From Phycisphaerae bacterium (GTDB lineage Bacteria > Planctomycetota > Phycisphaerae > FEN-1346 > JAACEH01), in assembly GCA_012729015.1 (NCBI GenBank), contig JAAYDY010000044.1, forward strand, positions 19,891-83,890: DNA of 64,000 bases, read 5' to 3'. Under the pieces are notes generated by a model that was not told where the DNA came from, made no database searches, and saw only the letters and a list, made by a program, of their open reading frames with translations. Below are positions 52,161-61,611 of the stretch, one piece after another (the first letter of the stretch is position 1; each line of letters begins with the position of its first letter). Made by a program: the position numbers and the translations under genes.

Positions 52161-53597
52161 CTACGGCTGCGGCTCCGACGGCGCACCACCGGGCGACGTC
52201 CCGCCGCCCGACTCCGCCGCATCCCACCGCGGCTCCATGCGAAGCAGTTGCGTCTGCTTATCCTTCAGCCCTCGCAGCACAAAGAGCACGATCTCCTTCG
52301 GCTTCTTCTCCACCTCTTCCTTGAAGATCCGCTCGAAGTCCTCGATGCCCGCGATCTCCCGGTCCTGCACCTTCTTGATGATGTCGCCGTCGCTCAGTCC
52401 CGCGGCATCGGCCCATCCCGACGAGTCGATGAAGTGGACAATCACGCCCTTCTCGTCGTTCGGCAACTCACGCACCAGCGTGTCGTCGAGCACCAGCTCA
52501 CGCACGCCCAGGCCGAACTGCTTGTTGCGATACCGCACCGCTTCCGCCTCGCTCTTCGGCTGCGGCTCCAGCGTCACCTTCAGCGGCACCACCTTCCCGT
52601 CACGGAACACCTCCACGTCCACCGTCTCGCCTACCTTGCGCTCGCGAATCTCGTTCTGGAACGCAGTCACCAGTTGCCCCTCGGTGCCCTTGATGTCCTT
52701 GCCGCCGATCGACAGGATCAGGTCTTCGACCTTGATTCCCGCCTTGTCCGACGGCGATCCGGCGATGATCCGCCCCACAACGACGCCGCGCCGCTCGCCC
52801 AGACCATGGTACTCGGCCAGGTCTTCGCTCACGGCCTCAAGCCCGGCCACGCCCATCCACGGACGCTTCACCTGCTGCCCGCCCTCCGGCGGGTTCTTCA
52901 TCCGCTCCAGGAACCGTTCCGTCGGCCACACAATCTGCGTCCGCCCCGCCTGCGGCTGCGCGTTCGTCCCACGGTTGAACACGTAGATCGTCGCCAGCCC
53001 CACCACCTTTCCGTCGAACGTCACGACCGGCGTCCCCGGAACGCCCAGGTCCCCGTCCACCGGATACAGCCGGAACGGTTTGTCGATCACCACCTGCACG
53101 CGGGTGTCCTGCACCATCACCTTGTAAGCGTCCGGCTCGCCGAGATTCCCGAATCCGACCACGGGGTCGCCGATCTGAAGCTCCGCCGCCTCGAATTCCA
53201 GCGGGGGCAGTTTCGGCGCGCTCGGGTCCGTAACGCGCACAAACGCTACCTGGGCCACGTCATCCTTGCCCAGGTACTCGGCCGTATACGACTTGCCGTC
53301 CACGGCGCCCGGCACGATCACGCGGAAATCCTTGTACTGGCTGATCGCCACGTTGTCGCGGATGACCAGGCTCGTGAACATCACCAGGTTGTTCTCGCCC
53401 ACCACGCTGCCCAGGAACCTGGCCTCCGCCTTGCGACCGTCGTCCGCCTCGATGTAGAACGACACAATCACCAGCGACGGCTGCACCTTGTCCAGAACCG
53501 TGCGGAGGGTCTCCGCCGTGGCATCGGCCACGGCCGCCGTCGGCCATCCCGCCGCCGCAACCAGCGCCAGCACTGCCGCAATGCCCAGTCTCTTCAT
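52161..53597 (-). CDS. HtrA/DegP-like pseudoprotease: trypsin-fold domain lacking the His/Asp/Ser triad, plus two PDZ domains; signal peptide
   Basis: Position of the GNSGGP serine motif reads DGDLGVPGTPVV; no histidine in the His-box region; two PDZ-like GSPSDKAGI / AAGLSDGDII stretches. Confidence 0.55.
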   Translation of the reverse strand: MKRLGIAAVLALVAAAGWPTAAVADATAETLRTVLDKVQPSLVIVSFYIEADDGRKAEARFLGSVVGENNLVMFTSLVIRDNVAISQYKDFRVIVPGAVDGKSYTAEYLGKDDVAQVAFVRVTDPSAPKLPPLEFEAAELQIGDPVVGFGNLGEPDAYKVMVQDTRVQVVIDKPFRLYPVDGDLGVPGTPVVTFDGKVVGLATIYVFNRGTNAQPQAGRTQIVWPTERFLERMKNPPEGGQQVKRPWMGVAGLEAVSEDLAEYHGLGERRGVVVGRIIAGSPSDKAGIKVEDLILSIGGKDIKGTEGQLVTAFQNEIRERKVGETVDVEVFRDGKVVPLKVTLEPQPKSEAEAVRYRNKQFGLGVRELVLDDTLVRELPNDEKGVIVHFIDSSGWADAAGLSDGDIIKKVQDREIAGIEDFERIFKEEVEKKPKEIVLFVLRGLKDKQTQLLRMEPRWDAAESGGGTSPGGAPSEPQP

Positions 53598-53677
53598 GAT
53601 CCGCTCCTGAAATGAGGACTCCTCGCCGGGGCGCGGCTGCCATCCATGCCGCGAGGCCTCGCCCGCCAACGGTGAAG

Positions 53678-55153
53678 TCACTGCCTTTGCGATTCCTGCT
53701 TCGTGTCGCCGTCCTTGTCGTCCTTGGGCGACTCCGCACCGGCAGGCTCTTTCGCCGCCTCCGGTTCCGCGTCGTACTCGATTCTCAGCACCTCGACCTT
53801 GATCGTCGGGCCGCGCCACACCTTGATCAGAATCCGAGGCTTCTTCTCCTTGACCGCCTCGTCGTACACCTTCTGCAACTGCTCCACGCTGTCAATCTCG
53901 GCCTGCTCGCACTGGAACACCACGTCCCCCTGGCTCAGGCGCACCTTGTGAGCCGGTTCGCCAGGACGCACGCCCGTCACGTACACCCCGCGCGTATTCT
54001 TCAGGTTCTCGCGGGTCGCCAGGCGCTTCGTGATGTTCTGCCCCACGAATCCCCACTTCTCGAAGTTCACCTCGTCGCTGCGCACCGTCGTCAATTCGGC
54101 CGTCGTCAAGCGGATGTCCATCGGCTCGCCGCCCCGACGGATCTTCAACGTCACCTCACGCCCGACCGGCGTGCCGGCAATGTGCCGCCTCAGCTCAAAC
54201 AACTCCTCCGGATACCGCCCTGCCACCCGGTGCCCGTCATACTCCAGCAGAATGTCCTGCGGCTGAAGGACGTTCTCCGCCGGGCTGTCCGGCTCGATGC
54301 TGGCGATGATCGCCCCTTCCGTCTTGCTCACGTCCAGGAAGCTCTCCAGATCCTGGAGAGCCTGGAACTGCACTCCGATGGTGCTCCGCAGCACCTTCCC
54401 GGTGTCCAGAATCTGCGCCACCACGTTCTTGGCCACGTTGATCGGCACCGCGAAGCCCAGGTCGTTGCCACCGCCCCGCGTGTTGATGCCGATCACCTCG
54501 CCGCGAAGATTCACCAGCGGACCGCCCGAGTTGCCGGGGTTGATGGCCGCATCCGTCTGGAGCCACGTGCTGAACAGGCCCGTCTCCAGACCTCCGCCCA
54601 GGTCCATCGCCTCAGACAGAATCCGGTCGTGGCACGAGATGATCCCGAAACTGATCGACCGCGACAGGCCGAACGGGCTGCCGATGGCCACCACCGTGTC
54701 GCCCTCGACCACCGTGTCGCTGTCGCCGAAAGGCGCCCAGGTGATCTGGAAGCCCTTCTCCCGAACCTCGTCCATGTTCAGCTTGATGACGGCCAGGTCT
54801 GTCCACGGATCGGCCCCGACGAGGGTCGCCTTCACCCGCTCCTTATTGAACAGCGTGCAACTGAGCTCTTCCGCCCGCCCGGCCACATGATAGTTGGTCA
54901 GCACGTGGCCCTGGCTGTCGAACAGGACTCCCGACCCGAAGCCGCCGACCCGTTCCTTCTGGCCGCGGAAATACTCCGTCTTGCGAGCCTCCACACGCAC
55001 CACGGCCGGATACACCATATCCCGGGCTCGCTTGATGACATTCTCGACCTCGACATAGGCCAAACGCTCGTCGCCCTGCGACGCCGGCCGGCAACCCGCC
55101 GACCACGCCGCCAAGGCTGCGCACGCCACTGCCCACACATGCGATGTTCTCAC
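53678..55153 (-). CDS. htrA: Periplasmic serine endoprotease HtrA/DegP/DegQ with intact catalytic triad and two PDZ domains; GTG start, lipoprotein-like signal (…AAWSAGC)
   Basis: TNYHV, DLAVIKL, GNSGGPL motifs; the window ORF track extends the N-terminus via TTG, but GTG 55153 follows an AAAGGGG Shine-Dalgarno. Confidence 0.85.
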   Translation of the reverse strand: MRTSHVWAVACAALAAWSAGCRPASQGDERLAYVEVENVIKRARDMVYPAVVRVEARKTEYFRGQKERVGGFGSGVLFDSQGHVLTNYHVAGRAEELSCTLFNKERVKATLVGADPWTDLAVIKLNMDEVREKGFQITWAPFGDSDTVVEGDTVVAIGSPFGLSRSISFGIISCHDRILSEAMDLGGGLETGLFSTWLQTDAAINPGNSGGPLVNLRGEVIGINTRGGGNDLGFAVPINVAKNVVAQILDTGKVLRSTIGVQFQALQDLESFLDVSKTEGAIIASIEPDSPAENVLQPQDILLEYDGHRVAGRYPEELFELRRHIAGTPVGREVTLKIRRGGEPMDIRLTTAELTTVRSDEVNFEKWGFVGQNITKRLATRENLKNTRGVYVTGVRPGEPAHKVRLSQGDVVFQCEQAEIDSVEQLQKVYDEAVKEKKPRILIKVWRGPTIKVEVLRIEYDAEPEAAKEPAGAESPKDDKDGDTKQESQRQ

Positions 55154-55290
55154 GGTTGCCGCCCCTTTCTGCGGTAAAGATTTCACCCTTATACGAGACG
55201 GCCGCCGCCGCAAGCAACTCTTTTCGCAGTGCCCTCGTAAAACAGACAGGGCGAACCGGCTTGTCGGCCGCTTCGCCCCTTGCTTCTCAG

Positions 55291-55379
55291 TGGTGCGCTC
55301 GAGAGGAGTCGAACCTCCACCCGGTGTAATCCGGACTAGGACCTGAACCTAGCGCGTCTGCCAGTTCCGCCACGAGCGC
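55291..55379 (-). tRNA. tRNA-Leu (anticodon CAG) with a long variable arm; CCA encoded
   Basis: Hand fold: acceptor GCGCTCG/CGAGCGC, anticodon stem CTAGG/CCTAG with loop TTCAGGT, 17-nt variable arm, T arm GGAGG-TTCGACT-CCTCT, 3' ACCA. Confidence 0.8.
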
Positions 55380-55581
55380 CTCAGAAACGCCATATTAGCG
55401 AATCCCGACGCCTTGTCAAGACGGCGACCGCCAAGAAAGTGATCGCCCAAGAAGACCGGGGCCGGCATCACTCCCACATCCTTCGCACGCCCGTCCCGCA
55501 GGCTCGGTCTTCAACAGAAAAACGCGGGCCGCCGGGCAAATCCACCCGGCGACCCGCAACCCTCGTGCCTGCGCCAACCCC

Positions 55582-58500
55582 TCACGGCGTCGTGTAGGTG
55601 ACCTCCAGGACGGCCCCATTGGCCGCCCCGCTATCGTATTGGAACGTCTTGTGATACGTCCCCGTGCCGCTGGTGGCCCGGATGCCCAGGTAACTGCCTG
55701 AGGCGTAGTTCTGCCGGCTGACGAACGCCTGGACAAGATCCTTCACGTCGCACGACGTGTACCACTCGTTGGCCGTCCAGTCGCCCACCGGAATCGACCA
55801 CGTCGCGCCGATGCCGCTCATGACGGTATCCACCTGCGGCGCCGTCCCCCCGGCAAACGACGGGCAACTGTCGTAATCCAGCACTTCGAACGTCACCGAC
55901 GACGTGCCGCTGGTGCCGTTGGTTCCCGTCGCCTTCAACTTGATCACGGCCGAGGTGATCGTCGCCCCGGCCGGGATGTCCAACTGCCAACGGTAGCCGC
56001 CGCCGCGTACGCTGCTGGTGTAGGGACACGTGGCATCCGGCGACGTAGACCAATGGGCGGGCTGGTTGTCAGGATACGTGTTAAACCAGTACGTGTCGTC
56101 GCCCGAGGCCGCCACCTGGTAGCTCTTCTGGGTCTCGCCACTCTCGGCGCCGATCATGTAGATGTGCACGCCGTACGGATCGAACGTGTCGTCGAAGTAG
56201 CCGCTGCCGGAGGTAATCGACCGCGACTCGCCGTACACCTGGATCGTGGTGCCCGACAGCAGTCCATCAACCGTGAACCGTGCCGAGACGACGTCCGGCG
56301 AGTAGTTGAATATACGGTCGTATCCGTCGCCGACGACTCGGTCGTCCTTGGTTGCTCCAAGGAGGTCCCTCAGATCGGCCGCGAAGATGTAGATCACCTC
56401 CTCGCCCGGGTCGCCGTGAACGCGCGTGGTCAGGTCAATCCGCGGACTGGTCAGGTAGTCCGGATCGTTCGGGTTCCCGGTGGCATTCGTCGCCACGACA
56501 CTGACCTCCGGACCGGCGTTCTCCTGCGAGCATATCACCGGAGTCAGGTCCGTCACGTCATCCAGGAAGTCCAGCATGGTGTCCTGGAGGTCTGTCGGAA
56601 TCGGGCAGAAGTAGTGGAAGTAGCTGATCGCCTTGGCCCCGTGGATCAGCGCCAGCCAGAACTCGTTCTTGAGCATCCTCGGCTCCGGGTCCGGCGTCCA
56701 GGCATACTCGCCGCCGGCCGACCAATAGCCGTAGGGCTGACTGTGCCCCTCCGCATTGGGGTCGCGGACGTCCTGCGTCTCGATAAATATGACCGTCGGG
56801 GCCAGGTCGCGGTTGTCCCAGCGCACCCGATCCAGCGTCAGGACGAAGTCGGCCAGGGTGGAGTACTCGAACTTGGTCGTGTACTCATACGGGTAGTAGT
56901 CGATCCCGATGATGTCCGTCAGCAAGGTCTTCTGTCCGAAGACATGCTCATTGGTCTCGAACAGCCAGTCCACGCTTCTGAACTGCCTGTGGTACGCGGC
57001 ATTGGGAGAGTATGTGTACCCCTCGAGATTCACCCAGACGGGATGGTCTGTGTCATACTGGTGGCTCAACGTCGTCCATTCGCGGGTCGTGATCGGTTCG
57101 ATGTAGCTTCCCGCCGCCTGGTAGAGATCGGGCTCGTCCATCCAGAACCAGGCCAGCAGCCCATTGTGGCTCTTCGACCCATTGATGTACGAGATCAGGT
57201 CGTTCGGGTCGGTCTCGTACCACGTCTGGTGATCGGCCTTGGTGTCCCAGGCGCCCGGTCCGGCTCCATAGAGACCTTCGGTCACCCCGAAATCCAGGTA
57301 GTCGAGCCACGAGGCCACGTTCTTGCTCGGGTAGTACCCCGTCACGAGCAACGTGTTGATACACGGCGAGACGGCGTGGGTCGGATAGTGGTTCACTCCG
57401 AGCATCCACGACGTCACCGGAATGAACGGCTGCGGGTCGCCGTTGCCGTCCCGGATGCAGATGTTGTTGTACAGGTCGATGCCCACCTTCGGCACACCGT
57501 TGTGAAGACGCGTCCAGGTATAGCTTTCGGAGCCGCGCACCGTGCTGTTCGGCGCAATCACCTCGGCCGTCATCGTATACTGTCCGCTGGTCAGGCCCGA
57601 CCAGTCCGCGTCGAACACGATCTCATCCTCCAGGTCCAGACCGCCCGCCTGCTGGAACAGCACGGTGTCGTTCGACTGCGGATCGGTCAGCGTGACGCGG
57701 AGGGTGTCGTTGGGGTTGGCGTTGAACACCCAGACGTAGATCGGCTGCCCGATGCGCACATGCGGGTCGGCCATGCGGAACTCCAGGATCGCATCGCCGC
57801 CGGTGAACGTCACGTCAATCTGCGCCGCCCGGTCCGGGTCGATGGTCGTCTCATCCACATAACTGTCGTACACCGTCTTGACCGCCCCCGACACCGGCGT
57901 CCCCATCAAACCGAAGTGGTTGCCGAAGACGTACCCGGTGCTTTCGGGATCCAGCGGATCGGCCTGCCGGTCGATGAACGCCTGGAGCATCGCGCTGAGG
58001 TCCGGCGACTCGACCCAATCGTCCACCGCCAGCGTGGACGGAAACACCCAGTCGGCGTACAGGCTGGTCGGATCCATCAGGTCCCAGGTCCACGGGTTGT
58101 CGGCTATGCTGAACACCGGGCAGTTGTCGGTGTCGAAGAGTTGCAGCCGCCCGGTCGATGCCTGGGCCGTGACATAGCTCATCTTCAGCCGCATCCGGGC
58201 GTCGGTAATGGTCGCATTCGGCGGGATGTACGACTTGAACCGCCAGGCCGCCTTGCGCGTGGCGTCGGAGTACGGGAAGTAGATCGATGTGCCCGTGTGC
58301 TGGACGTAGCTCTCGAAGCACTTCACGTCGTCCTGCGAGTTCCGGATGCTGAGCGTGACCACCTTCTCCTGGGCCGCGGTCGTGTAGTTGACTTCCAGAA
58401 TCGCCCCGTAGCTGTGGTCGCCGTAGTCCCACTGGCGGACCTGCCGCGTGCCGCCGCTGGCCTTGTCCTGCTTCAGGCCAAGGTAGTTCCCCGACGTGTA

Positions 58501-58965
58501 GCCGGGACGGTCGATGAACTCCTGGACAATGGCGGCGATGTCCGGCGAGGTATACCACTCGCCCGCCGTCCACCCCTCCGAAAACGTCCAGTCCACGTAA
58601 CCGGCCGTCGTGGCGTAGTAATACGGGTTCGGGCTGTTCAGGGCCGGACAGTTGTCGGAGTCCACCAGTTGCAGCCGCGCCGTTGCCGCCGCCGACCCCG
58701 TCTCGTAGGCATTCACCTTCAGATAGGCCGACGTGACCGTCGCCCCGGCGGGAATGTCAATGGCCCACCGGAAGAAGCCCGGGCGACTGCCGTAGCTGTA
58801 CGGAAAGTAGATGTTCGCTGTGGCGTAGTTGCATCCCGAACTCGTTGTCGCGGCATCGTCCACCGACGCCGCCACCTGGTACTGCACCGTTTCGGCCATG
58901 GCAGTGGCGGCCCACAGGCCTCCCAATGCCGCCAGGCACCCTACTGCAACCACAATCGTTCTCAT
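55582..58965 (-). CDS. Giant secreted protein (1127 aa): three copies of a novel ~170-aa module (two N-terminal, one C-terminal) around a central clan GH-A-like TIM-barrel region
   Basis: Signal peptide MRTIVVAVGCLAALGGLWAATAMA; internal repeats visible by eye (see findings); central WFWMDEPD and TVIFIETQD resemble GH-A acid/base and nucleophile motifs. Confidence 0.7.
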   Translation of the reverse strand: MRTIVVAVGCLAALGGLWAATAMAETVQYQVAASVDDAATTSSGCNYATANIYFPYSYGSRPGFFRWAIDIPAGATVTSAYLKVNAYETGSAAATARLQLVDSDNCPALNSPNPYYYATTAGYVDWTFSEGWTAGEWYTSPDIAAIVQEFIDRPGYTSGNYLGLKQDKASGGTRQVRQWDYGDHSYGAILEVNYTTAAQEKVVTLSIRNSQDDVKCFESYVQHTGTSIYFPYSDATRKAAWRFKSYIPPNATITDARMRLKMSYVTAQASTGRLQLFDTDNCPVFSIADNPWTWDLMDPTSLYADWVFPSTLAVDDWVESPDLSAMLQAFIDRQADPLDPESTGYVFGNHFGLMGTPVSGAVKTVYDSYVDETTIDPDRAAQIDVTFTGGDAILEFRMADPHVRIGQPIYVWVFNANPNDTLRVTLTDPQSNDTVLFQQAGGLDLEDEIVFDADWSGLTSGQYTMTAEVIAPNSTVRGSESYTWTRLHNGVPKVGIDLYNNICIRDGNGDPQPFIPVTSWMLGVNHYPTHAVSPCINTLLVTGYYPSKNVASWLDYLDFGVTEGLYGAGPGAWDTKADHQTWYETDPNDLISYINGSKSHNGLLAWFWMDEPDLYQAAGSYIEPITTREWTTLSHQYDTDHPVWVNLEGYTYSPNAAYHRQFRSVDWLFETNEHVFGQKTLLTDIIGIDYYPYEYTTKFEYSTLADFVLTLDRVRWDNRDLAPTVIFIETQDVRDPNAEGHSQPYGYWSAGGEYAWTPDPEPRMLKNEFWLALIHGAKAISYFHYFCPIPTDLQDTMLDFLDDVTDLTPVICSQENAGPEVSVVATNATGNPNDPDYLTSPRIDLTTRVHGDPGEEVIYIFAADLRDLLGATKDDRVVGDGYDRIFNYSPDVVSARFTVDGLLSGTTIQVYGESRSITSGSGYFDDTFDPYGVHIYMIGAESGETQKSYQVAASGDDTYWFNTYPDNQPAHWSTSPDATCPYTSSVRGGGYRWQLDIPAGATITSAVIKLKATGTNGTSGTSSVTFEVLDYDSCPSFAGGTAPQVDTVMSGIGATWSIPVGDWTANEWYTSCDVKDLVQAFVSRQNYASGSYLGIRATSGTGTYHKTFQYDSGAANGAVLEVTYTTP

Positions 58966-59455
58966 GCGTTTCTCCTTGTTCTGAACCAGACGTGAGCACG
59001 AACAGACACACAGACGCGATGTGTTTCATCCCAGCCGGAACCGGCGATCCGGCGAACCGGCCGATGCCGCGGCACACTGCGTGATGCGCCGGGGGACCAA
59101 CATGGGACACCCGGTAGCGACCATGGCGGCACTACTGACATGTGGGGCCGGTCGGCTCGGCCGATGGCCATGACAGGCCGCGCGTTCCAGCCCCGAGGCG
59201 TCTATGATAACGTAAGCCTCAGACATCTACCTGTCACAACGCGGTGTTATTGTTCAGAATGCGAGGCTCGACGCAACGGTGCGCAACTAGCGCCGATATG
59301 GCCGCTTATCGTGCACCGTGGGCTGCCGGCGGAACACGGACGGCCCTTTTCTCTTCGAGTTTCGCATTGCCGTCTGGCGGGATTGGACGGCATCGAATGA
59401 CACTGTGCCATAACACCCGTGCGCCGCGGGCGCCATGGAGCCGGTCGAAGCGGTC

Positions 59456-60118
59456 CTACGTCGTGCCGCGCCGGGCGATGCCGTGCAGAAGCAGGCTGAC
59501 GACGTGGCGAATGTGGGATTCCATGTCGGTTCGGTGGGCCAGGCTGTCCAGGCCGAGGAACTGGCCCATCGTGTACTGATTGCTGAAGTAGAAGAAGCAC
59601 AGGGAGAAGATGCTCACCAGCAGTTCCGTGGCGTCGATGCCTTCGCGAAACCGTCGCTCGGCCTGGCCCTTCTGCAAGGCCAGTTGCAGGGCCGTGGCGA
59701 TCTGGGCCTTCTTGCCCTCCAGGGCCAGTTGCCGTGCCACCCGGCCGCCGTGGAGGTTCTCGAAACTGATGAGCCGCACCGACTCCGGGTGCTCCGCCAG
59801 AAACGCGTGGTACCGGCGCACGAGCGTCTCCAGCAGTTCCTCGGGTGGCAGCAGCATGTGAGCCAGGGCGATTTCCACGCCGGCGAACTCGTCGTACACG
59901 GTCCTCAGCGCCTCGCGGTAGAGCCCCTCCTTGGAGCCGAAGTAGTGGTAGACCATCCGCTTGTTGAGCCCGGCCCGGCGACAGATGTCGTCCACCGAGG
60001 CCGCCTCCGGCCCCGACCGGCCGAACACGTCGATGGCCGCCTCCAGCAGCCGCCGCCGGCTGGCCTGAGGATCCCGCTTGCGAGTCTGCGAACCCGTCTG
60101 CTTGTGGCGCGTCTCCAT
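59456..60118 (-). CDS. TetR-family transcriptional regulator
   Basis: N-terminal TetR HTH ...RRLLEAAIDVFGRSGPEAASVDDICRRAGLNKRMVYHYFGSKEGLY. Confidence 0.85.
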   Translation of the reverse strand: METRHKQTGSQTRKRDPQASRRRLLEAAIDVFGRSGPEAASVDDICRRAGLNKRMVYHYFGSKEGLYREALRTVYDEFAGVEIALAHMLLPPEELLETLVRRYHAFLAEHPESVRLISFENLHGGRVARQLALEGKKAQIATALQLALQKGQAERRFREGIDATELLVSIFSLCFFYFSNQYTMGQFLGLDSLAHRTDMESHIRHVVSLLLHGIARRGTT

Positions 60119-60282
60119 GAGGACAATGTAACCTTGCAGTTACTTAAAGTCAACCATTGGGTAACATTTCTCTGGCGACCTGCGTGGCCCTGTGGTAGAC
60201 TCCCGGTTGTGGGTCGGCGACGAAGACACGTGCGGCGCCGCCCAGCAGGATTCTCTGGATCGCCACCAACCGGAGTCATGCC

Positions 60283-61611
60283 ATGAGCGGTAAGCTGGCT
60301 TGCGTGAAGACGCCGCTGCCCGGCCCCAAGGGGGCCGCGTTGCTGGAGAAATGGCACAGGTTCGAGGTCAATACCGTGGGATTCCAGGCCCCGGTCGTCT
60401 GGGACACCGCCCAGGGCGTTGTCGTCAAGGACGTGGACGGCAACACGTTCCTCGACTGGACCAGCGGCGTCCTGGTGACCAACGTCGGCCACTGCCATCC
60501 GAAGCTCGTGAAGGCGGTTCAGGAGGCCGTCGCGCGGCTCATCAACAACTATGAGTGCCCGACGCCCGCCCGCATCGAGGCCGCCGAGCGCCTGGTCGCC
60601 CACCTGCCCCCCCACATGGACAAGTGCTTCTTCCTGACCACCGGCAGCGAAGCCACCGAGTCGGTCACGCGCATCATGAAACGCAAGACCGGCTGTTTCG
60701 AGGTGATCGGCTTCCACGGCGGGTTCCATGGGCGCACCTACGCCGCCGCCGGCGTCGGAGGCCTGACGAATCCGAAGAAGGGCTACGGGCCGACCATGCC
60801 CGGAGCCATCCGCGTTCCGTTCCCGTACTCGTATCGCAGCCCCGTGGGCGACGACCCCGGCAAGCTCATCGACTTTGCCATGACGATGCTCGAAGAAGGC
60901 GTCCGGGCCAACAGCACCGGCTCGCTGGCGGGCATGATGGTGGAACCGTACCTGGGCGCCGCCGGATTCATCTTCCCGCCCGACGGCTACCTGGCCGAGC
61001 TTCAGAAGTGGTGCCGCGCCAAGGGCATCGTGTTCGCCGTGGACGAGGTGCAGAGCAGCTATGGCCGCACGGGCAGAATGTGGGGCCACCAGTGGGAAGC
61101 CGTCGAGCCGGACCTGATGGCCATCGGCAAGGGCATCGGCAACGGCATCCCGACGGCAGCCATCGCCGGGCGTACCGAGACGCTCTCGGGCATGGGCCCT
61201 GGCGACATGAGCAGCACCGTCGGCGGCAATCCTGTGTCCAGCGCGGCCGTCATTGCGATTCTGGAGATCATGGACGAGGAGAAGCTGTCGGAGAATGCCC
61301 TGGCCGTCGGCAAGGTCATCAAGGACCGGCTGCTGGCGATCCAGGACAAGAGCCGCATCGTCGGCGATGTCCGCGGCCGCGGCCTCGTGATGGGCGTCGA
61401 GCTGGTCAAGGACAGGAAGACCAAGGAACCCGCCGCCGACCTGACCCGCAAGCTGATCGTCCGCGCCGCCGAGAAGGGCCTGTTGATCGGATCGGTGGGC
61501 ATCTTCGGCAACGTGATTCGCGTGGCGCCGCCGCTGGTCATCAACGAGGCCCAGGCCCACGAAAGTCTGGACATCTTCGCCTCGGCCCTGGCCGACGTGG
61601 AGAAACGGTAA
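60283..61611 (+). CDS. Class III PLP-dependent aminotransferase
   Basis: Typical class-III layout with PLP-lysine region DEVQSSYGRTGRMWG...AIGKGIGNG. Confidence 0.8.
   Translation: MSGKLACVKTPLPGPKGAALLEKWHRFEVNTVGFQAPVVWDTAQGVVVKDVDGNTFLDWTSGVLVTNVGHCHPKLVKAVQEAVARLINNYECPTPARIEAAERLVAHLPPHMDKCFFLTTGSEATESVTRIMKRKTGCFEVIGFHGGFHGRTYAAAGVGGLTNPKKGYGPTMPGAIRVPFPYSYRSPVGDDPGKLIDFAMTMLEEGVRANSTGSLAGMMVEPYLGAAGFIFPPDGYLAELQKWCRAKGIVFAVDEVQSSYGRTGRMWGHQWEAVEPDLMAIGKGIGNGIPTAAIAGRTETLSGMGPGDMSSTVGGNPVSSAAVIAILEIMDEEKLSENALAVGKVIKDRLLAIQDKSRIVGDVRGRGLVMGVELVKDRKTKEPAADLTRKLIVRAAEKGLLIGSVGIFGNVIRVAPPLVINEAQAHESLDIFASALADVEKR

What the first reader, a model, noticed from the sequence alone, without database searches (positions are those of the whole stretch)
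55582..58965. 1127-aa secreted protein built from a triplicated, unrecognised ~170-aa module flanking a GH-A-like core
Three clearly homologous modules are visible by eye: aa 29-196 (nt 58378-58881), aa ~203-400 (nt 57766-58359) and aa 949-1127 (nt 55585-56121). Shared landmarks are Y(Q/E)V.AS.DD, IPAGAT(V/I)TSA.(L/I)K, L(Q/E)L.D.D.CP, W.....W(Y/V).SPD(I/L/V)..(I/L)(Q)(E/A)F(I/V)(D/S)R, YLG, and a terminal GA(I/V)LEV.YTT. I cannot assign the module to any family I know, whether CBM, Ig-like or PKD. The central ~550 aa carry WFWMDEPD and TVIFIETQD, resembling the acid/base and nucleophile strands of clan GH-A TIM barrels. This suggests a polysaccharide hydrolase with a new type of carbohydrate-binding or cell-surface module. 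A tRNA-Leu lies immediately downstream and a 490-bp leader upstream.
Basis: seen in the sequence. Interest (0 to 1): 0.6.

Follow-up and report, generated by a model that had tools for sequence, protein, structure and literature searches.

The report
Secreted three-module putative glycan hydrolase
This gene encodes a real secreted enzyme-like protein: an uncharacterised sugar-chain-cutting barrel flanked by three copies of a sugar-binding-type module that is a distant, uncatalogued cousin of the known CBM96/DNRLRE modules. It is a reasonable candidate for a new enzyme family and a new binding-module family, but not a new kind of biology.

Summary
ORF 55582-58965(-) encodes a 1127-aa protein with a signal peptide and three homologous ~175-aa modules (pairwise BLASTP E 1e-15 to 6e-32). 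All domains are under purifying selection.

The module is not a new fold. AlphaFold gives a beta-sandwich (pLDDT 97). Its best solved matches are the chondroitin-sulfate-binding CBM 8WAB and the alginate-binding CBM96 7VBO, both DNRLRE-type. It scores below threshold on NCBIfam DNRLRE and gets no Pfam hit, so it is an unmodelled divergent branch of that superfamily.

The central 550 aa are an Ig-like sandwich, a (beta/alpha)8 barrel and a C-terminal sandwich. Foldseek matches GH5, GH2, GH66 and GH30 enzymes. A family profile reaches GH158 and GH5 mannanases, aligning invariant E611 with the Man5A acid/base Glu169. The motif is D-E-P rather than N-E-P. The beta7 Glu (E729) is present here but in only 83% of the family.

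The core family is large in metagenomes (549 clusters at E<=1e-30) and has no Pfam or NCBIfam model. Close relatives sit inside exopolysaccharide biosynthesis clusters or next to sugar-responsive regulators.

Verdict: probable retaining GH-A-type hydrolase of unknown substrate, a new variant of a known kind.

The parts
55582..58965 (-). Complete ORF, 1127 aa plus stop
   Evidence: Orthologs at 98% (P0001) and 76-78% (P0002, L001) align full length. dN/dS is 0.23 against L001.
58971..58977 (-). Ribosome-binding site AAGGAGA, 6 nt before the ATG
   Evidence: Read directly from the sequence.
58894..58965 (-). Probable Sec signal peptide (aa 1-24, cleavage after AMA)
   Evidence: Read from the sequence (n-region, hydrophobic core, AxA). 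No predictor was run. Conserved in the L001 ortholog.
58375..58890 (-). Module 1 (aa 26-197), DNRLRE/CBM96-like beta-sandwich
   Evidence: AF2 pLDDT 97. Foldseek 8wab and 7vbo. NF033679 E 0.0011.
57796..58362 (-). Module 2 (aa 202-390), most divergent copy, directly N-terminal of the core
   Evidence: Groups with the core-adjacent modules of the multi-module homologs in an NJ tree without bootstrap. Highest dN/dS of the domains, 0.33.
57505..57768 (-). Ig-like beta-sandwich preceding the barrel (aa 400-487)
   Evidence: AF2 core model, strands 7-87, pLDDT 84-94.
56530..57486 (-). (beta/alpha)8 barrel, putative catalytic domain (aa 494-812)
   Evidence: AF2 model. Foldseek GH5/GH2/GH66/GH30. 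Profile hits GH158 and GH5.
57130..57138 (-). D610-E611-P612 after strand 4: putative acid/base Glu with a preceding Asp
   Evidence: E is 149/149 and D is 147/149 in family cores. E611 aligns with Glu169 of T. reesei Man5A (1qno) and with the NE of GH158.
56779..56781 (-). E729 at the end of strand 7: putative nucleophile
   Evidence: Position taken from the AF2 secondary structure. Glu in 124/149 family cores, otherwise Q/A/N/C/G.
56146..56508 (-). C-terminal beta-sandwich of the core (aa 820-940)
   Evidence: AF2 model strands 422-540.
55585..56130 (-). Module 3 (aa 946-1127), DNRLRE/CBM96-like beta-sandwich
   Evidence: NF033679 E 1.7e-5, profile positions 41-164 of 164.
55523..55558 (-). 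Intrinsic-terminator-like hairpin (16 bp, 12 GC) plus T-run, 24 nt after the stop

Best explanation
The gene encodes a secreted, monocistronic, multi-domain carbohydrate-active enzyme. Its order is signal peptide, two tandem DNRLRE/CBM96-like beta-sandwich modules, an Ig-like sandwich, a (beta/alpha)8 barrel of the clan GH-A type, a C-terminal sandwich and a third module.

The barrel most likely hydrolyses a glycosidic bond by the retaining double-displacement mechanism. E611 at the end of strand 4 would act as acid/base and E729 at the end of strand 7 as nucleophile. Y691 on strand 6 would support the nucleophile. D610 occupies the place of the usual Asn that contacts the sugar C2 substituent.

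The three modules most likely hold the enzyme on a polymeric glycan. The core-adjacent copy (M2) may be a fixed partner of the catalytic unit, and M1 and M3 are likely peripheral targeting copies.

What is shown: domain architecture, homology of the modules, fold class, and conservation and alignment of the catalytic candidates. What is inferred: hydrolytic activity, the mechanism, and glycan binding by the modules. The substrate is unknown. The contexts of relatives point to a bacterial exopolysaccharide or another complex glycan.
For: - **Modules:** Triplication E 1e-15 to 6e-32. The AF2 model has pLDDT 97. Its top PDB matches are 8wab (chondroitin-sulfate-binding CBM, E 6e-6, TM 0.59) and 7vbo (CBM96, E 1e-4, TM 0.58). 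8wab is a DNRLRE protein (PMC12611786). CBM96 is related to DNRLRE and shares the pro-BMP9 structural neighbour (PMC9971899). Sub-threshold NF033679 hits appear.
- **Core fold:** AF2 pTM 0.81 with eight strand-helix units, DEP after strand 4 and IET on strand 7. Foldseek gives GH5 ManDH5 at 1.4e-15, then GH2, GH66 and GH30.
- **Core sequence:** The family profile hits GH158 9oro (6.6e-6) and GH5 mannanase 1qno (9.5e-4), with DEP aligned on NE(S/P). By my count the aligned Glu is Glu169 of 1qno.
- **Conservation:** E611 100%, D610 99%, Y691 95%, W770 100% across 149 cores.
- **Family partners:** PKD, Laminin_G_3, T9SS tail, dockerin and CBM5/12.
- **Genomic context of relatives:** GntR/periplasmic-binding-type sugar regulators. 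Wzx/Wzy polysaccharide clusters.
- **Selection:** Purifying selection in every domain, dN/dS 0.14-0.33.
Against: - No member of the core family is characterised.
- No Pfam or NCBIfam glycoside hydrolase model matches.
- Sequence links to GH158 and GH5 are short and weak, covering about 90-150 of 488 profile positions.
- The canonical Asn before the acid/base is replaced by Asp.
- The strand-7 Glu is missing in 17% of family representatives, including P0007. That is unusual if it is an essential nucleophile.
- Foldseek TM-scores for the whole core are only 0.30-0.47.
- The loops around the predicted active site are low-confidence.
- The modules are acidic (pI 4.3-4.6), unlike CBM96, whose key ligand contacts are Lys/Arg. 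Their ligand cannot be transferred from CBM96 or 8wab.
- The window offers no carbohydrate-related neighbours.
Confidence: 0.6

Rival explanations
1. The barrel is a hexosaminidase-type enzyme using substrate-assisted catalysis. The invariant adjacent Asp-Glu pair on strand 4 would work like the D-E pair of GH20 and GH123: Asp orients the 2-acetamido group and Glu is the acid/base. The strand-7 Glu would then be dispensable. The substrate would be a HexNAc-containing, possibly partly de-N-acetylated, exopolysaccharide. The acidic modules would bind that cationic polymer.
For: D610 is 99% and E611 100% conserved, while the strand-7 Glu is only 83% conserved. Close relatives P0030 and P0035 lie next to a CE4-type polysaccharide deacetylase inside GT-rich clusters. 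All modules and the mature protein are acidic, pI 4.3-4.6. The properties of GH20 and GH123 are from my own knowledge.
Against: The query keeps the strand-7 Glu and the strand-6 Tyr, which fit a classical nucleophile. The top 50 Foldseek hits are GH5, GH2, GH66, GH30 and GH13, not GH20, GH123 or GH84. Profile hits go to GH158 and GH5. Many secreted proteins are acidic. The P0029 cluster has no deacetylase.
Confidence: 0.15
2. The protein is a non-catalytic surface or matrix glycan-binding protein (adhesin or lectin). The barrel would be a binding scaffold or pseudo-enzyme, and the three modules would provide multivalent attachment.
For: 17% of family representatives lack the strand-7 Glu. The same module occurs in clearly non-enzymatic surface proteins such as PilY1-like and cadherin/Ig-repeat proteins. 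No activity is known for any family member.
Against: Absolute conservation of E611 and near-absolute conservation of D610, Y691 and W770 across 149 divergent cores argues for chemistry rather than binding alone. The query has both Glu residues. Strong purifying selection acts on the barrel, dN/dS 0.19.
Confidence: 0.12
3. The modules are not carbohydrate-binding. They would act as prodomain- or chaperone-like units, given the fold shared with TGF-beta/BMP prodomain arm domains, or as protein-protein or cell-envelope attachment units.
For: pro-BMP9, BMP10 and myostatin prodomains are among the top Foldseek hits. BamH of Flavobacterium uses the same fold in a protein complex (PMC12611786). The modules lack the basic character of CBM96.
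Against: The two best matches are experimentally shown CBMs (PMC9971899). In the core family the N-terminal position is otherwise filled by Laminin_G_3 lectin-type domains (21 of 53), suggesting exchangeable glycan-binding units. The modules are aromatic-rich at 13-16% W/Y/F. They also occur with beta-helix/pectate-lyase-like proteins.
Confidence: 0.1

Closest known systems
Clan GH-A retaining glycoside hydrolases, nearest by sequence profile GH158 (endo-beta-1,3-glucanase, PDB 9oro) and GH5 beta-mannanases (1qno, 9gpa ManDH5)
   Same: (beta/alpha)8 barrel with a Glu at the end of strand 4 and a Glu at the end of strand 7. An aromatic residue on strand 6. An Ig-like or beta-sandwich domain packed against the barrel. 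Secreted and modular (GH158 catalytic residues from PMC13195107).
   Different: Sequence identity is about 10-13%. The profile match covers only strands 3-6. The motif is D-E-P instead of N-E-P. The strand-7 Glu is not universal in the family. No curated family model recognises it.
CBM96 / DNRLRE domain (NF033679; PF24517; structures 7VBO alginate-binding, 8WAB chondroitin-sulfate-binding)
   Same: Beta-sandwich of about 170 aa with the same top structural neighbours, including pro-BMP9. It occurs singly or repeated in secreted polysaccharide-active and surface proteins. Weak sequence similarity exists.
   Different: - Scores are below the curated cut-off (29.5 bits for the whole protein, 19-25 bits for single modules, against 34 bits).
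- Pfam CBM96 does not hit the query modules.
- A profile of 58 relatives finds no solved structure by sequence.
- That profile retrieves only unannotated proteins.
- The subfamily has its own signature (YQxAASxDD, DxDNCP with conserved Cys, SPD, GAxLEVxYT).
- It is acidic rather than basic.
Glycoside hydrolases encoded inside exopolysaccharide biosynthesis operons (PslG/GH39, BcsZ/GH8, PelA/GH166, Sph3/GH135, PgaB/GH153); comparison from my own knowledge
   Same: Close stand-alone relatives of the core (P0029, P0030, P0035; 37% identical to the query core) are secreted. They sit between glycosyltransferases in Wzx/Wzy-type clusters with Wza/Wzc-like export genes.
   Different: There is no sequence or top-ranked fold relation to those families. 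The window gene itself is not in such a cluster and carries three extra modules.

Membership tests
Clan GH-A | (beta/alpha)8 barrel catalytic domain | tested here: met
   The AF2 model (pTM 0.81) has eight strand-helix units. Foldseek E 1e-15 to 1e-10 to GH5, GH2 and GH30 structures.
Clan GH-A | Acid/base Glu at the C-terminal end of strand 4 | tested here: met
   E611 follows strand 204-209 of the core model. It is invariant in 149 cores. It aligns with the NEP Glu of 1qno (Glu169 by my count) and the NE of GH158.
Clan GH-A | Asn immediately before the acid/base Glu (N-E-P) | tested here: not met
   The position is Asp in 147 of 149 family cores.
Clan GH-A | Nucleophile Glu at the end of strand 7 | tested here: inconclusive
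   E729 is present in the query at the end of strand 325-330. Only 124 of 149 family cores have Glu there. No structural superposition on a known nucleophile could be inspected.
Clan GH-A | Retaining hydrolysis of a glycoside | not testable with these tools
   Needs an enzyme assay and product stereochemistry by NMR.
Any curated GH family (Pfam / NCBIfam models; GH158, GH5) | Significant match of the catalytic domain to the family model or over its full length | tested here: not met
   No Pfam or NCBIfam hit for the core at E<=10. The best PDB profile hit, GH158, covers 92 of 488 positions at E 6.6e-6. CAZy/dbCAN models were not available.
DNRLRE domain (NCBIfam NF033679) | Score at or above the curated cut-off of 34 bits | tested here: not met
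   Whole protein 29.5 bits (E 6.9e-7). M3 24.9 bits, M1 19.1 bits, M2 no hit. 29 of 58 related modules hit at E<=0.01, best 6.6e-9.
CBM96 (Pfam PF24517) | Match to the Pfam model | tested here: not met
   No hit for the three modules at E<=10. 3 of 58 relatives hit at best 0.0018. None of 120 profile hits carries PF24517.
CBM96 / DNRLRE superfamily (fold level) | Beta-sandwich fold superposable on 7VBO and 8WAB | tested here: met
   Foldseek: 8wab E 5.9e-6, TM 0.59; 7vbo E 9.6e-5, TM 0.58. These are ranks 1-2 and 6 of the PDB, from a model with pLDDT 97.
CBM96 | Binding of an anionic polysaccharide through conserved Lys/Arg (K27, R36 in TM6-N4) | tested here: inconclusive
   The residue-level equivalence could not be aligned. 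The modules are net acidic (pI 4.3-4.6; K+R 9-13 against D+E 15-25), which argues against the same ligand class. Binding itself is not testable here.
GH20/GH123-type substrate-assisted hexosaminidases | Adjacent Asp-Glu catalytic pair after strand 4 of a TIM barrel, with fold similarity to those families | tested here: inconclusive

The most novel reading that the evidence does not exclude
The core founds an uncharacterised glycoside hydrolase family with hundreds to thousands of metagenomic clusters. It has a GH-A-like fold with an invariant Asp-Glu diad. Its native role would be to cleave bacterial Wzx/Wzy-type exopolysaccharides, possibly HexNAc-rich or partly deacetylated ones. Stand-alone members would act as the processing hydrolase of the biosynthetic cluster, co-conserved with a 12-TM Wzy-like protein. 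Multi-module members such as this one would be secreted EPS or matrix degraders. The acidic DNRLRE-like module would then be a new CBM family for such polymers, the charge mirror-image of CBM96.
Probability: 0.2. Interest if true: 0.65.

Novelty: new variant of a known kind. Interest (0 to 1): 0.45.

Why it matters
If activity is confirmed, the core would define a new CAZy family within clan GH-A. That family is widespread in uncultured Planctomycetota and other phyla and is invisible to current annotation. The module would extend the small CBM96/DNRLRE group, which has only two characterised ligands, to a large unannotated branch. That branch also decorates PilY1-like, beta-helix and phosphoesterase proteins. 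The link of close relatives to exopolysaccharide gene clusters gives a concrete and testable lead for the substrate. This could matter for biofilm-matrix turnover and for finding matrix-degrading enzymes. It does not overturn any concept. Modular GH-plus-CBM proteins with uncharacterised families are common in metagenomes.

Tried and rejected
- **Family and sequence searches with no result:**
  - Pfam on the whole protein, each module and the core at E<=10 gave nothing.
  - phmmer of the protein against PDB gave only noise.
  - The module-family profile against PDB sequences gave no hit.
- **Module profile against 5.8 billion proteins:** It returned only unannotated or generically named proteins. 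It did not bridge to named DNRLRE/CBM96 proteins.
- **RNA element in the upstream 'leader':** Rejected. Rfam found only the tRNA and sub-threshold noise.
- **Polysaccharide-utilisation or EPS cluster in the window:** Rejected. Neighbours are two HtrA-like proteases, tRNA-Leu, an unknown 283-aa ORF, a class-III aminotransferase and an epimerase. phmmer with EPS-cluster proteins found no homolog (E<=1e-8) anywhere in the 64 kb.
- **Recent duplication as the origin of the three modules:** Rejected. M1 is 73% identical to M1 of P0003 but only 35-39% identical to its own M2 and M3.
- **Literature search for a newly described matching GH family:** Uninformative.
Full report
**1. Observation**

The ORF at 55582-58965 on the minus strand is real and encodes 1127 aa. 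It begins at an ATG preceded by AAGGAGA. A terminator-like 16-bp hairpin with a T-run follows at 55558-55523. Next come a promoter-like site and tRNA-Leu(CAG) at 55291-55379. The gene therefore looks monocistronic. The N-terminus (MRTIVVAVGCLAALGGLWAATAMA|ETVQ) has the form of a Sec signal peptide. This is read from the sequence; no predictor was run.

| Pair | Identity | BLASTP E-value |
|---|---|---|
| M1 vs M3 | 38% | 6e-32 |
| M1 vs M2 | 35% | 2e-29 |
| M2 vs M3 | 27% | 1e-15 |

HMM-based limits are aa 26-197, 202-390 and 946-1127.

A syntenic ortholog exists in a MAG labelled 'uncultured Anaerolineaceae' (L001). It is 77% identical, whereas the flanking HtrA-like proteases are 92-95% identical. 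dN/dS against it is 0.14-0.33 for every domain. All parts are therefore coding and under constraint.

**2. The module**

Pfam finds nothing. NCBIfam gives only sub-threshold matches to the DNRLRE domain NF033679, whose cut-off is 34 bits:

| Query | Bits | E-value |
|---|---|---|
| Whole protein | 29.5 | 6.9e-7 |
| M3 | 24.9 | 1.7e-5 |
| M1 | 19.1 | 0.0011 |
| M2 | none | none |

Of 58 related modules collected from the homologs, 29 hit DNRLRE, with a best E of 6.6e-9. Only 3 hit Pfam CBM96, at 0.0018.

An AlphaFold model of M1 built on that 58-sequence alignment is very confident (pLDDT 97, pTM 0.92) and is a beta-sandwich. Its best solved-structure matches are:
- the chondroitin-sulfate-binding CBM 8WAB (E 5.9e-6, TM 0.59)
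- pro-BMP9 arm domains
- the alginate-binding CBM96 7VBO (E 9.6e-5, TM 0.58)

It is nevertheless a distinct sequence family:
- A profile of the 58 modules finds no PDB sequence.
- Against 5.8 billion proteins it returns 125 hits, none annotated as CBM96 or DNRLRE.
- It has its own signature and conserved Cys residues.
- It is acidic (pI 4.3-4.6) and aromatic-rich. CBM96 uses Lys/Arg to bind a polyanion.

The module is mobile. It also occurs in PilY1-like proteins, beta-helix proteins, a metallophosphoesterase and Ig/cadherin-repeat proteins.

**3. The core**

AlphaFold on aa 400-948 with nine homologs gives pTM 0.81. The model has an N-terminal Ig-like sandwich, eight strand-helix units and a C-terminal sandwich. 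D610-E611-P612 follow strand 4 directly, and E729 ends strand 7.

Foldseek against the PDB returns, at about 10% identity:
- GH5 beta-mannanase ManDH5 (E 1.4e-15)
- GH2 glucuronidases and galactosidases
- GH66 dextranases
- a GH30 xylanase

A 20-sequence family profile hits GH158 (9oro, E 6.6e-6) and GH5 mannanases (1qno, E 9.5e-4) by sequence. DEP is placed on their NE(S/P) motif, and DYYP on the strand-6 FHLYP. Counting the printed alignment, the aligned residue in 1qno is Glu169. From my own knowledge this is the acid/base of T. reesei Man5A. GH158 uses Glu143 and Glu229 in a retaining mechanism (PMC13195107).

An exhaustive HMM search of 1.84 billion cluster representatives shows a large family with no Pfam or NCBIfam model:

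| E-value cut-off | Representatives |
|---|---|
| <=1e-30 | 549 |
| <=1e-10 | 3699 |
| <=1e-3 | 7570 |

The weakest of these probably include other GH-A families.

Conservation across 149 full-length cores:

| Residue | Conservation |
|---|---|
| E611 | 100% |
| W770 | 100% |
| D610 | 99% |
| Y691 | 95% |
| N537 | 95% |
| E729 (strand 7) | 83% (otherwise Q, A, N, C or G) |

Two features therefore depart from textbook GH-A: Asp instead of Asn before the acid/base, and a less-than-universal nucleophile.

**4. Architecture in the family**

Of 166 proteins with the core, 38 carry the module. It is usually placed directly N-terminal of the core. In other members that position is taken by Laminin_G_3 (21 of 53). 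PKD domains (35 of 53), T9SS tails, dockerins, SLH and CBM5/12 also occur. This is the pattern of exchangeable glycan-binding and anchoring parts on a secreted enzyme.

The Phycisphaerae-type homologs P0003-P0006 have the same module-module-core-module order, but with PKD spacers. M1 of the query is 73% identical to M1 of P0003, yet only 35-39% identical to its own M2 and M3. In an NJ tree the core-adjacent modules of these proteins group together (no bootstrap). The triplication is therefore old, and the copies are positionally differentiated.

**5. Context**

The window offers no functional hint near the gene. The neighbours are two HtrA/DegP-like proteases, tRNA-Leu, an unknown 283-aa ORF, a class-III aminotransferase and an NAD-epimerase.

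Relatives are more informative:
- P0003, P0004, P0005 and P0009 each lie next to a divergent regulator. For P0003, P0005 and P0009 it has the GntR and periplasmic-binding domains of a sugar-responsive regulator; beside P0004 only a Peripla_BP_3 domain is recorded.
- The closest non-Phycisphaerae relatives are P0029, P0030 and P0035 (48-56% identical to one another, 37% to the query core). They sit inside Wzx/Wzy-type polysaccharide biosynthesis clusters.
  - The clusters contain Bac_transf, a Wza-like exporter, a Wzc-like kinase, GT4, GT2, the core homolog, a CE4 deacetylase (two of the three loci), GT2 and a flippase.
  - In the two larger loci, L016 and L018, a predicted 11-12-TM protein is 53% identical, while the glycosyltransferases are only 26-38% identical.
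- Other loci show no such cluster.

This parallels hydrolases encoded in EPS operons such as PslG, BcsZ, PelA and Sph3 (from my own knowledge). It suggests bacterial exopolysaccharide as a plausible substrate class for the family.

**6. Interpretation**

The best-supported reading is a secreted retaining glycoside hydrolase of a new, unclassified family with a GH-A-type barrel. It is targeted by three DNRLRE/CBM96-like modules, and its substrate is unknown (confidence about 0.6).

The rivals are:
- a substrate-assisted D-E mechanism on HexNAc polymers (0.15)
- a non-catalytic glycan-binding protein (0.12)
- modules that are not CBMs (0.1)

**7. Novelty and score**

This is met only at fold level and sub-threshold sequence level. 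The core test, TIM barrel with GH similarity, is passed.

The finding is a sound lead for a new GH family and a new CBM family. That is useful to CAZyme specialists but not surprising in kind. I rate interest at 0.45 and novelty as a new variant of a known kind.

Noticed in passing
L016 10001-11599; L018 9234-10892; L019 8001-10067: Stand-alone or single-module relatives of the core lie inside Wzx/Wzy-type exopolysaccharide clusters in the conserved order GT4-(GT2)-(CE4 deacetylase)-core-GT2. In L016 and L018 an unannotated protein with 11-12 predicted TM segments is 53% identical, far more conserved than the glycosyltransferases (26-38%).
   Followed up: partly
L014 4283-8344 and 10001-14008: Two paralogs of the protein (P0009, P0005) sit on one Planctomycetes contig, each preceded by its own divergent GntR/periplasmic-binding-type regulator. 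P0003 has the same kind of regulator; beside P0004 only a Peripla_BP_3 domain is recorded.
   Followed up: partly
window 52161-53819 (-) and 53678-55213 (-): Two adjacent HtrA/DegP-like serine protease genes (Trypsin_2 plus PDZ) lie downstream of the tRNA-Leu. They are 92-95% identical to those of the syntenic MAG locus L001, whereas the studied protein is only 77% identical, so it evolves faster than its neighbours.
   Followed up: partly
window 56053-58995 (+): A 980-aa ORF runs antisense to the gene. It is most likely a high-GC artefact of the opposite strand and was not tested for homologs.
   Followed up: no
proteins P0018, P0019, P0020, P0024: PilY1-like proteins (PF05567 plus VWA) carry three tandem copies of a related module near their N-termini. 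The module family is therefore also used on type IV pilus tip-adhesin-like proteins.
   Followed up: no
window 59435-60286 (+): The divergently transcribed 283-aa ORF upstream overlaps the start of a class-III aminotransferase gene by 4 nt, which looks like an operon. It has no Pfam, NCBIfam or PDB match.
   Followed up: partly
L003, L008, L012 (search for related loci): Weak to moderate core relatives (24-29% identity) occur in DPANN archaeal MAGs (Pacearchaeota, Iainarchaeum). The family therefore crosses the bacteria-archaea boundary.
   Followed up: no
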